From assembly GCF_009914755.1 (NCBI RefSeq), contig NC_060930.1: a stretch of 64,000 bases of DNA; one strand, given 5' to 3'. A program made the translations under genes and the position numbers. Each line of letters begins with the position of its first letter. The stretch's first letter is position 1. The notes beneath the pieces are model-generated. The model did no database searches. It was not told the origin of the DNA and saw only the letters and a program-made list of their open reading frames with translations. Source of the stretch: the human T2T-CHM13v2.0 reference genome, Homo sapiens. Below are positions 50,818 to 55,040 of this stretch, one piece after another.

Positions 50818-50834
50818 TAAAGAAACAGAATATT

Positions 50835-53800
50835 ATGAAGGCAGAAATAAAGATGTTCTTTGAAACCAACGAGAACAAAGACACCACATACCAGAATCTC
50901 TGGGACGCATTCAAAGCAGTGTGTAGAGGGAAATTTATAGCACTAAATGCCTACAAGAGAAAGCAGGAAAGATCCAAAATTGACACCCTAACATCACAAT
51001 TAAAAGAACTAGAAAAGCAAGAGCAAACACATTCAAAAGCTAGCAGAAGGCAAGAAATAACTAAAATCAGAGCAGAACTGAAGGAAATAGAGACACAAAA
51101 AACCCTTCAAAAAATCAATGAATCCAGGAGCTGGTTTTTTGAAAGGATCAACAAAATTGATAGACTGCTAGCAAGACTAATAAAGAAAAAAAGAGAGAAG
51201 AATCAAATAGACGCAATAAAAAATGATAAAGGGGATATCACCACCAATCCCACAGAAATACAAACTACCATCAGAGAATACTACAAACACCTCTATGCAA
51301 ACAAACTAGAAAATCTAGAAGAAATGGATACATTCCTCGACACATACACTCTCCCAAGACTAAACCAGGAAGAAGTTGAATCTCTGAATAGACCAATAAC
51401 AGGCTCTGAAATTGTGGCAATAATCAATAGTTTACCAACCAAAAAGAGTCCAGGACCAGATGGATTCACAGCCGAATTCTACCAGAGGTACAAGGAGGAA
51501 CTGGTACCATTCCTTCTGAAACTATTCCAATTAATAGAAAAAGAGGGAATCCTCCCTAACTCATTTTATGAGGCCAGCATCATTCTGATACCAAAGCCGG
51601 GCAGAGACACAACCAAAAAAGAGAATTGTAGACCAATATCCTTGATGAACATTGATGCAAAAATCCTCAATAAAATACTGGCAAACCGAATCCAGCAGCA
51701 CATCAAAAAGCTTATCCACCATGATCAAGTGGGCTTCATCCCTGGGATGCAAGGCTGGTTCAATATACGCAAATCAATAAATGTAATCCAGCATATAAAC
51801 AGAGCCAAAGACAAAAACCACATGATTATCTCAATAGATGCAGAAAAAGCCTTTGACAAAATTCAACAACCCTTCATGCTAAAAACTCTCAATAAATTAG
51901 GTATTGATGGGACGTATTTCAAAATAATAAGAGCTATCTATGACAAACCCACAGCCAATATCATACTGAATGGGCAAAAACTGGAAGCATTCCCTTTGAA
52001 AACTGGCACAAGACAGGGATGCCCTCTCTCACCGCTCCTATTCAACATAGTGTTGGAAGTTCTGGCCAGGGCAATCAGGCAGGAGAAGGAAATAAAGGGT
52101 ATTCAATTAGGAAAAGAGGAAGTCAAATTGTCCCTCTTTGCAGACGACATGATTGTTTATCTAGAAAACCCCATCGTCTCAGCCCAAAATCTCCTTAAGC
52201 TGATAAGCAACTTCAGCAAAGTCTCAGGATACAAAATCAATGTACAAAAATCACAAGCATTCTTATACACCAACAACAGACAAACAAAGAGCCAAATCAT
52301 GAGTGAACTCCCATTCACAATTGCTTCAAAGAGAATAAAATACCTAGGAATCCAACTTACAAGGGATGTGAAGGACCTCTTCAAGGAGAACTACAAAACA
52401 CTGCTCAAGGAAATAAAAGAGGACACAAACAAATGGAAGAACATTCCATGCTCATGGGTAGGAAGAATCAATATCGTGAAAATGGCCATACTGCCCAAGG
52501 TAATTTACAGATTCAATGCCATCCCCATCAAGCTACCAATGCCTTTCTTCACAGAATTGGAAAAAACTACTTTAAAGTTCATATGGAACCAAAAAAGAGC
52601 CTGCATCGCCAAGTCAATCCTAAGCCAAAAGAACAAAGCTGGAGGCATCACACTACCTGACTTCAAACTATACTACAAGGCTACAGTAACCAAAACAGCA
52701 TGGTACTGGTACCAAAACAGAGATATAGATCAATGGAACAGAACAGAGCCCTCAGAAATAACGCCGCATATCTACAACTATCTGATCTTTGACAAACTTG
52801 AGAAAAGCAAGCAATGGGGAAAGGATTCCCTATTTAATAAATGGTGCTGGGAAAACTGGCTAGCCATATGTAGAAAGCTGAAACTGGATCCCTTCCTTAC
52901 ACCTTATACAAAAATCAATTCAAGATGGATTAAAGATTTAAACGTTAGACCTAAAACCATAAAAACCCTAGAAGAAAACCTAGGCATTACCATTCAGGAC
53001 ATAGGCGTGGGCAAGGACTTCATGTCCAAAACACCAAAAGCAATGGCAAGAAAAGCCAAAATTGACAAATGGGATCTAATTAAACTAAAGAGCTTCTGCA
53101 CAGCAAAAGAAACTACCATCAGAGTGAACAGGCAACTGACAAAATGGGAGAAAATTTTCGCAACCTACTCATCTGACAAAGGGCTAATATCCAGAATCTA
53201 CAATGAACTCAAACAAATTTACAAGAAAAAAACAAACAACCCCATCAAAAAGTGGGCGAAGGACATGAACAGACACTTCTCAAAAGAAGACATTTATGCA
53301 GCCAAAAAACACATGAAAAAATGCTCATCATCACTGGCCATCAGAGAAATGCAAATCAAAACCACTATGAGATATCATCTCACACCAGTTAGAATGGCAA
53401 TCATTAAAAAGTCAGGAAACAACAGGTGCTGGAGAGGATGTGGAGAAATAGGAACACTTTTACACTGTTGGTGGGACTGTAAACTAGTTCAACCATTGTG
53501 GAAGTCAGTGTGGCGATTCCTCAGGGATCTAGAACTAGAAATACCATTTGACCCAGCCATCCCATTACTGGGTATATACCCAAATGAGTATAAATCATGC
53601 TGCTATAAAGACACATGCACACGTATGTTTATTGCGGCATTATTCACAATAGCAAAGACTTGGAACCAACCCAAATGTCCAACAATGATAGACTGGATTA
53701 AGAAAATGTGGCACATATACACCATGGAATACTATGCAGCCATAAAAAATGATGAGTTCATGTCCTTTGTAGGGACATGGATGAAATTGGAAACCATCAT

Positions 53801-53867
53801 TCTCAGTAAACTATCGCAAGAACAAAAAACCAAACACCGCATATTCTCACTCATAGGTGGGAATTGA
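50835..53867 (+). CDS. Uninterrupted L1 ORF2p lacking the endonuclease domain (about residues 266-1275: PIP/Z region, RT, C-terminal Cys-rich domain), 1010 aa; expression unknown
   Basis: ORF track 50799..53867 with in-frame ATG at 50835; [26 protein letters not shown]...HCWWDC and the native C-terminus IGGN are all present. Confidence 0.7.
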
Positions 53868-54096
53868 ACAATGAGATCACATGGACACAGGAAGGGGAAT
53901 ATCACACTCTGGGGACTGTGGTGGGGTCGGGGGAGTGGGGAGGGATAGCATTGGGAGATATACCTAATGATAGATGACACGTTAGTGGGTGCAGCGCACC
54001 AGCATGGCACATGTATATATATGTAACTAACCTGCACAATGTGCACATGTACCCTAAAACTTAAAGTATAATAAAAAAAAAAATTAAAAAAAAAAA
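50836..54096 (+). mobile_element. Young 5'-truncated LINE-1 (ACG/A type, L1PA2-to-L1HS transition)
   Basis: Open ORF2; 3'UTR gatgacACGttagtgggt (53979-53981) and aaacttaAagtat (54064); A tail 54073-54096. Confidence 0.93.
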
Positions 54097-54931
54097 CTCA
54101 ATTAAAAAACCCATGAGCTTTCTATAACAATTTGCTATTTCTTTCCAGTTATATTATGCCTTAAAAGTAGATTACCAATTCAACTTTTCCAGCCTTAATT
54201 TATGCCTAGTCATAGAATCAGATTTTTACTCATCCAGAATAGACTTGTATACTAAGGTTAAAATCTGAGAATTGGATTGTGTAATATTTCATTGATTATA
54301 TTATACTCATTTGTTCACATTTAACATCTTTGAAATGAAGATTGTCTTATAATGAATGATAAGAAAGTATTTGTCATAGGTTGATTATGATAGTTTAATT
54401 TTTCTTTCTTCATGACGTTTAAACTAATGATGTGTTTTCAATGGATGGCTTTTTATATTTGATGAAATGTGGTTCTTGGCTCTTCAATGAAACTCTGTAA
54501 AATTAGGCAAAGCAGAGTAATCCTGTTTATTCCTAGCTTTGCTCCAGGCTGTCTAACAAACTGGGATGGGAATAGGTACTCTATTTAAAGCAGGGTGGTG
54601 TTTGGGAGTTCCATCTCCCATTGCCACTGTCATTCCTTACCCTCCCCCATGGCCCAGTTCTAACAATAACATTTCTATTTCTTCTTTAAATCTGCCTTTG
54701 GATAATTTTTAAATGATGTTAATTTTATTATGATCTCAAGTTATTTATATTCCCTTCCTCCTACCTTTTTTTCAGTTAACCAAAAGTTCAGTCTTTTTTT
54801 ATTAAGGCTTTTTCCATAATTCCTTTAAAATTGAAATAAAAATGGAACATTTTTTGTCTATGTTCTTTACATAAATATATATGTAGAAGTTTGAGTGATT
54901 AAAATATAAACTGTCAAAAAAAAAAAAAAAA
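54097..54931 (+). other. L1 3' transduction (~820 bp of non-L1 DNA plus second poly(A))
   Basis: Lies between the L1 A tail and a second A tail (54916-54931); ATTAAA at 54898; enclosed by TSD aaagaaacagaatatta (50819-50835 and 54929-54945). Confidence 0.93.
54282..54473. mobile_element. Decayed TcMar-Tc2 MITE (MER104-like) within the transduced DNA
   Basis: tatttcattgatt...ttcacatttaacatctttgaaat and tttgatgaaatgtggt form imperfect inverted ends; recalled consensus. Confidence 0.55.
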
Positions 54932-55040
54932 GAAACAGAATATTAAGGATAGAGTTTTTCTTGTGGGTTTTGGGGTTTCTGGAGTTGGCTGCTTAATATG
55001 ATTAGACCAAAAAAATGCTAAGGACTCTACTTCTAATAAT

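What the first reader, a model, noticed from the sequence alone, without database searches (positions are those of the whole stretch)
50819..54945. L1-mediated 3' transduction of ~820 bp, bounded by a perfect 17-bp TSD
The repeat aaagaaacagaatatta occurs at 50819-50835 and 54929-54945. It encloses L1, poly(A), 819 bp of unrelated DNA, ATTAAA (54898, 12 nt before the tail) and a second poly(A). Removing the unit restores a continuous HERV-L leader (...gattctaaagaaacagaatatta|aggatagagtt). This is the established signature of readthrough past the weak L1 poly(A) signal, so 54097-54915 tags the source L1 locus.
Basis: partly seen in the sequence, partly recalled or inferred. Interest (0 to 1): 0.75.

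Follow-up and report, generated by a model that had tools for sequence, protein, structure and literature searches.

The report
L1 3' transduction with missing parent
A young human LINE-1 copy on chromosome 6 carries 819 bases copied from chromosome 18, where this genome has no LINE-1, so its parent element was likely lost or is very rare; this is an ordinary, well-described kind of event.

Summary
A 5'-truncated L1 (window 50835-54096, pre-Ta ACG type), an A-rich tail, 819 bp of non-L1 DNA and a second poly(A) lie between two identical 17-mers, inside the leader of a decayed ERV-L. The 819 bp match one other place in CHM13, chr18:28,412,249-28,413,067 (815 of 819 identical). That copy has the same ATTAAA, a T/G-rich stretch behind the cleavage point and no poly(A), so the direction is chr18 to chr6. 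No young L1 lies at the chr18 site; a consensus L1 endonuclease site does, and no insertion is listed there in the readable part of a 1,019-genome long-read table. Best reading: a partnered 3' transduction from a pre-Ta source that has since been lost or is very rare, the class recently called 'proxy elements'. It is not one of the two published proxies. The open ORF2 remnant behind the LTR looks like chance: 16 of 20 changes are non-synonymous, and 3 of 5 relatives are also open. New member of a known kind; interest 0.25.

The parts
50305..50794 (+). 5' LTR of the host ERV-L (MLT2A type; subfamily name recalled, not tested). No DUX4-like 11-mer within one mismatch in this copy.
   Evidence: 77-89% identical to the LTRs of 7 of 7 paralogous loci; motif scan: none here, at least one in 7 of 7 paralogs
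50819..50835 (+). left target-site duplication, 17 bp; target site is a near-consensus L1 endonuclease site
50835..53867 (+). ORF2 remnant, open from Met266 of ORF2p to the normal stop (1010 aa): no endonuclease domain; RT domain present. The 5' junction shares one base (A) with the TSD.
   Evidence: RVT_1, E 2.6e-47
53868..54075 (+). L1 3' UTR with the pre-Ta diagnostic ACG at 53979-53981 and the L1 poly(A) signal AATAAA at 54070-54075
   Evidence: criterion from PMC12350158 methods
54076..54096 (+). first A-rich tail, inherited from the source L1; the TT interruption is shared with many ACG elements
54097..54915 (+). transduced segment, 819 bp, copy of chr18:28,412,249-28,413,067 (+); may start at 54093 with 10 bases of chr18 skipped
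   Evidence: 815 of 819 identical, no gaps, 1 mismatch at the junction and 3 inside
54898..54903 (+). ATTAAA poly(A) signal used by the read-through transcript; an AATAAA at 54835 was passed over
   Evidence: 12 nt before the tail; at chr18 the next 40 nt are 55% T and 68% T+G
54916..54928 (+). second poly(A), not templated at chr18
54929..54945 (+). right target-site duplication, 17 bp
54946..60340 (+). decayed ERV-L interior (RT, RNase H, integrase, dUTPase pieces in broken frames); no 3' LTR found

Best explanation
This is a 5'-truncated pre-Ta-type L1 carrying 819 bp copied from chr18:28.412 Mb, where this genome has no young L1; it likely arose by read-through from a full-length parent L1 that once sat at that chr18 site and has likely since been lost or become very rare. 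Steps. (1) Inferred: a pre-Ta L1 inserted on one chr18 haplotype at or within about 20 bp of the TT|AAAA site at 28,412,234/5. (2) Inferred from the sequence: transcription ran past the L1 AATAAA and a downstream AATAAA and was cleaved 12 nt behind ATTAAA, in front of a T/G-rich element. (3) Shown by the hallmarks, mechanism from established knowledge of target-primed reverse transcription: ORF2p nicked the ERV-L leader on chr6, copied tail, tag and 3.26 kb of L1, stopped with a 1-base microhomology and left a 17-bp duplication. (4) Inferred: 10 bases at the junction were lost between two AA dinucleotides, during copying or later. (5) Inferred: the daughter persisted while the parent allele dropped out, roughly 1-5 million years ago. 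The copy is predicted to be inert.
For: One other copy of the tag in CHM13, 815 of 819 identical; a 3-kb query around the source finds no further copy. The chr18 copy has no poly(A) or TSD, has the same ATTAAA and a T/G-rich downstream stretch. Across 23 kb of chr18 the only L1 pieces are 77-91% identical to this L1 and on the opposite strand. The window's first bases behind the tail also occur 14 bases upstream of the aligned start at chr18, directly behind a consensus endonuclease site; the chance of the 6 informative bases within 20 positions is about 0.007. Supplementary Table 18 of PMC12350158 (CHM13 coordinates, solo insertions, Alu and L1 rows sorted together) has no row between chr18:28,266,626 and 28,466,237. 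The source list of PMC13009371 has no '18q12' entry. The element and 16 of 16 fetched relatives (picked by similarity) carry ACG. Three internal differences in 816 bases give 1.8 (0.4-5.4) or 3.7 (0.8-10.7) Myr at 1.0e-9 or 0.5e-9 per site and year (rates assumed).
Against: The parent L1 itself was not seen in any genome, so steps 1 and 5 are inferred. Only CHM13 could be searched; no ape, archaic or other human genome. Table 18 is cut in the copy held and lists solo insertions only; Tables 19-20 (transductions) were not held. The L1 body has 19 private changes in 3238 bases (14 non-CpG), more per branch than the tag (P 0.03 for all, 0.13 non-CpG); at the slower rate this would date to 8.6 (4.7-14.5) Myr, so human-specific status rests on the ACG diagnostic. 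No sibling sharing the private changes was found: the best hits over 1.4 kb score about 67 bits below self (40 of 3522 candidates scored). The junction can also be read as one substitution with no deletion.
Confidence: 0.72

Rival explanations
1. Same transduction, but the parent L1 still segregates in living people at chr18:28.412 Mb as an uncatalogued or differently filed allele, as for the two published proxy elements.
For: Both published proxies have living non-reference parents. The tables searched are incomplete: Table 18 cut, Tables 19-20 not held; the searches of PMC8647825 supplements were uninformative because calibration terms also found nothing.
Against: No row at the site in the sorted stretch of Table 18, which lists full-length L1s nearby; no 18q12 source in the union list of PMC13009371; tag and L1 divergence point to an event older than most segregating alleles.
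Confidence: 0.18
2. No L1 ever sat at chr18: ORF2p began on a cellular polyadenylated RNA ending at chr18:28,413,067, copied about 820 nt, and switched template onto the poly(A) of an L1 mRNA at an A-rich point.
For: The chr18 site is empty with no trace of an L1 or duplicated target; the ATTAAA plus T/G-rich element is a plausible natural poly(A) site; the junction is A-rich and imperfect, which would also suit a switch.
Against: Read-through transduction is common (466 of 5,311 polymorphic L1 insertions in PMC12350158) and empty sources are described. The first tail has the patterned form seen in genomic ACG elements. I know the reverse order (cellular RNA 5', L1 3') as the usual chimera (recalled). 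No transcript at the site is known to me; none could be looked up.
Confidence: 0.07
3. The tag is a DNA-level duplication or gap-filling event unrelated to the L1 insertion.
For: None beyond the lack of a visible parent.
Against: The copy ends 12 nt behind a poly(A) signal in a non-templated poly(A), and one TSD encloses L1 and tag together.
Confidence: 0.01

Closest known systems
Partnered L1 3' transduction (described in PMC12350158 and PMC13009371, passages read)
   Same: L1 3' end, tail, unique DNA, downstream poly(A) signal 10-30 bp before a second tail, one TSD around all; tag maps to one locus on another chromosome.
   Different: Nothing in the anatomy; the source locus is empty in the reference.
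'Proxy elements' of PMC13009371 (section 10 and supplement passage read): truncated reference L1s with a tag from a source absent from the reference
   Same: Truncated reference L1, transduced tag, empty source site in the reference.
   Different: The two published proxies (chrY from 6q25.3; 19q13.31 from 6p24.1) have living, somatically active parents; here no parent allele was found and the element is pre-Ta.
L1HS pre-Ta subfamily
   Same: ACG diagnostic; 98-99% identity to other ACG elements.
   Different: Belongs to a small group of 9 loci in CHM13 with a shared 3' UTR variant; no close sibling.
Delta263RTCys ORF2p fragment of PMC4889948 (passages read)
   Same: Nearly the same boundaries (about 264-1275 against 266-1275 here), with the WD 288-289 pair retained; that fragment supported Alu retrotransposition with endonuclease fragments in trans.
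   Different: That was an engineered, tagged construct; this remnant has 16 amino-acid changes and no evidence of expression.

Membership tests
Partnered L1 3' transduction | L1 3' end and tail followed by non-L1 DNA and a second, non-templated poly(A) | tested here: met
Partnered L1 3' transduction | Poly(A) signal 10-30 bp before the second tail | tested here: met
   ATTAAA at 54898-54903, tail from 54916; T/G-rich stretch follows at chr18
Partnered L1 3' transduction | One TSD enclosing L1 and tag; target present once at the empty site | tested here: met
   6 of 7 paralogous ERV-L loci contiguous, the seventh with its own Alu
Partnered L1 3' transduction | Tag maps to a locus elsewhere | tested here: met
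   chr18:28,412,249-28,413,067, 815 of 819
Partnered L1 3' transduction | A source L1 directly upstream of the tag in some genome, past or present | tested here: inconclusive
   absent in CHM13 and in the table stretch read; consensus endonuclease site at the junction; other genomes not searchable
Proxy element (PMC13009371) | Truncated L1 in the reference with a tag whose source is absent from the reference | tested here: met
   for CHM13; GRCh38 not checked
Proxy element (PMC13009371) | Parent found as a non-reference allele that produces new offspring | tested here: inconclusive
   none; tables incomplete
L1HS pre-Ta | ACG triplet at the 3' UTR diagnostic position | tested here: met
   53979-53981; criterion
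L1HS pre-Ta | Absent at the orthologous site in apes | not testable with these tools
   no primate genomes held (no relatives)
ERV-L (host element) | LTR, RT, RNase H, integrase, then dUTPase, no env (order recalled as the ERV-L hallmark) | tested here: met
   Pfam on 10 open pieces, 5 with retroviral domains: RVT_1, RT_RNaseH_2, RNase_H (below cut-off), rve, dUTPase
ERV-L (host element) | LTR subfamily MLT2A1 versus MLT2A2 | not testable with these tools
   no repeat library held; name recalled

The most novel reading that the evidence does not exclude
The insertion fused an ATG-led, endonuclease-less but otherwise open ORF2 (residues 266-1275) in sense behind an ERV-L LTR, so early embryos or testis make an RT-only ORF2p from this locus, a natural counterpart of the laboratory fragment that mobilises Alu in trans with endonuclease fragments. 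Against it: no sign of selection (16 non-synonymous, 4 synonymous; an open frame after 20 changes has chance 0.41), 3 of 5 relatives are open too, this LTR lacks the DUX4-like motif that 7 of 7 paralogs have, and five ATGs and two AATAAA lie upstream.
Probability: 0.03. Interest if true: 0.6.

Novelty: new member of a known kind. Interest (0 to 1): 0.25.

Why it matters
As a mechanism it teaches nothing new. Its modest value is as a fossil record: the tag gives the address of a once-active pre-Ta source that seems gone from present genomes, and three differences that mark the haplotype it sat on. That makes one case of 'active full-length L1s are lost while their truncated offspring stay' checkable in pangenome and archaic data. 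In practice it is also a mapping trap: reads from chr18:28.412-28.413 Mb and this chr6 copy differ at only 3-4 bases, so transduction callers could mistake one for the other.

Tried and rejected
Sibling transductions: none in CHM13 by the tag, by 3 kb around the source, by a junction pattern (1 match, the window itself) or among 16 related L1 tails. A close sibling L1 sharing private changes: none among 40 scored of 3522 candidates. Testing whether the 10 extra chr18 bases are ancestral through an old repeat (it looked MIR-like to me, recalled): no usable paralogs, so unresolved. Rfam on the source region: two chance-level matches below gathering score. The sigma-70 scan does not apply to a human LTR and was ignored. 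Selection on the ORF2 remnant: rejected. Literature: no paper naming this locus in searches. Supplement searches used GRCh38 offsets that I recalled and are uninformative (small file; calibration terms also empty). Szak 2003, Pickeral 2000, Xing 2006 and the Science version of Hoyt 2022 were not held; the supplement of PMC9311842 could not be read; bioRxiv supplements are closed, so Hoyt's Table S13 of CHM13 transductions, which may well list this event, was not seen.

Full report
Observation. The region reads, on the + strand: LTR (50305-50794), a short leader, a 17-mer (50819-50835), L1 from inside ORF2 to its 3' end and tail (50835-54096), 819 bp of non-L1 DNA (54097-54915), poly(A) (54916-54928), the same 17-mer (54929-54945), and the rest of a decayed retroviral interior. 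The 17-mer occurs only at these two places in the window; 0 of 100 shuffles gave two matches. To test the empty site I aligned the left and right flanks separately to seven paralogous loci (7 of the 39 non-self matches). In 6 of 7 the two flanks meet and overlap by exactly 17 bases; in L009 an antisense Alu with its own 11-bp repeat sits at the same spot. So the 17-mer is a true target-site duplication. The host has RT, RNase H, integrase and dUTPase pieces in broken frames (5 of 10 open pieces matched such Pfam families) and no second LTR of its own downstream; this order fits ERV-L (recalled).

The tag and its source. The 819 bp have four matches in CHM13: the window itself, chr18:28,412,249-28,413,067 (+) and two short 69-77% matches. 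The chr18 match is gap-free with 4 mismatches, one at the junction and three inside. At chr18 the sequence runs on without poly(A) into 40 bases that are 55% T and 68% T+G, 12 nt behind ATTAAA. An AATAAA 63 nt further upstream was passed over; PMC13009371 (passages read) reports such bypassing as common. The direction is therefore chr18 to chr6, through RNA. A 3-kb query around the source found no third copy. The site lies 204 kb above a minus-strand cadherin propeptide exon at chr18:28,208,667, which I take to be CDH2 (name recalled).

The parent is missing. In 23 kb of chr18 around the site the only L1 pieces are 77-91% identical to this element and on the opposite strand, and no duplicated target is visible at the junction. 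The nine bases at 54093-54101 of the window also occur at chr18:28,412,235-243, directly behind a TT|AAAA endonuclease consensus, ten bases before the alignment resumes. The chance of the six informative bases within 20 positions is about 0.007. I read this as a parent inserted at that site plus a 10-base loss between two AA pairs; one substitution with a non-consensus site, or a site 20 bases on with an interrupted tail, remain possible. An attempt to show from an old repeat that the ten bases are ancestral failed for want of paralogs.

Is the parent alive? Supplementary Table 18 of PMC12350158 (1,019 long-read genomes, CHM13 coordinates; two parts of a cut file read) lists Alu and L1 insertions in order and has no row between chr18:28,266,626 and 28,466,237. 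It holds solo insertions only, and Tables 19-20 were not held, so it also says nothing on whether the chr6 copy is polymorphic. The supplements of PMC13009371 contain no '18q12'. Searches of the supplements of PMC6191304 and PMC8647825 were uninformative. Loss or great rarity is the likelier reading, not a shown one.

Subfamily and age. The element has ACG at the diagnostic position, which PMC12350158 (methods passage) defines as pre-Ta; so do 11 of 11 top relatives and 16 of 16 loci fetched at length (eight picked by a shared variant, eight). Against the majority of these it has 19 private and 3 shared changes in 3238 bases. The three tag differences give 1.8 (0.4-5.4) or 3.7 (0.8-10.7) Myr at assumed rates of 1.0e-9 and 0.5e-9; the 14 non-CpG private L1 changes give 4.3 (2.4-7.3) or 8.6 (4.7-14.5) Myr, an upper bound since they include the parent's own changes. 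The L1 body is thus somewhat more diverged per branch than the tag (P 0.03; 0.13 without CpG). No close sibling was found (40 of 3522 candidates scored).

The open ORF. The frame is open from Met266 of ORF2p to the normal stop, 1010 aa with an RT domain, in sense behind the LTR. PMC4889948 (passages) found that a fragment of nearly these bounds supports Alu mobilisation with endonuclease fragments, and PMC3836709 (passages) that DUX4 activates some MLT2A LTRs. But 16 of 20 changes are non-synonymous (26% synonymous expected by chance, 20% seen), an open frame after 20 changes has chance 0.41, five ATGs and two AATAAA lie upstream, 3 of 5 relatives with a matched start are open as well (6 given, one unmatched), and this LTR has no DUX4-like motif (recalled pattern) within one mismatch whereas 7 of 7 paralogs do. 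I give expression of such a protein 3%.

Comparison with what is known. Partnered 3' transduction is common: 466 of 5,311 polymorphic L1 insertions in PMC12350158 and 183 high-confidence L1 cases in CHM13 in the Hoyt preprint (passages). PMC13009371 (section 10 and a supplement passage) names truncated reference L1s whose source is absent from the reference 'proxy elements' and lists two; this is not one of them. No paper naming this locus came up in searches, but the catalogues most likely to hold it (Hoyt Table S13, Szak 2003, Pickeral 2000, the supplement of PMC9311842) could not be seen.

Verdict. New member of a known kind; interest 0.25.

Noticed in passing
L009:1961-2292 (G000:C10, about 94.115 Mb): A paralogous ERV-L holds an independent antisense Alu with an 11-bp repeat at the same leader position as this L1, so the spot has been hit twice.
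   Followed up: partly
window 56657-56826 and 58596-58764: A 171-bp piece of the ERV-L pol region occurs twice, 92% identical; the upstream copy sits out of place between gag-like and protease-like sequence.
   Followed up: no
window 60273-60340: The ERV-L interior has a 27-base A run and breaks off soon after, with no 3' LTR found.
   Followed up: no
window 1-225 and 28495-28585: Two more pieces of the same LTR type on the minus strand, 84-85% identical to the LTR at 50305.
   Followed up: no
window 16314-21592: An older 5.3-kb L1 on the + strand, 85% identical to a young full-length relative.
   Followed up: no
G000 C4:28182354, C5:83809015, C8:33531977, C12:44824295, C18:15376560, C20:30558167, C24:14085891, C24:17967515: Eight other ACG L1s share a 3' UTR variant with this element, a possible small pre-Ta sub-lineage; two are on chrY and appear full length.
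   Followed up: partly
L048 (C6:117.149 Mb), L046 (C24:14.086 Mb), L054 (C4:71.332 Mb): These ACG L1s have a few non-A bases and a second A run behind the first tail, possibly very short transductions.
   Followed up: no
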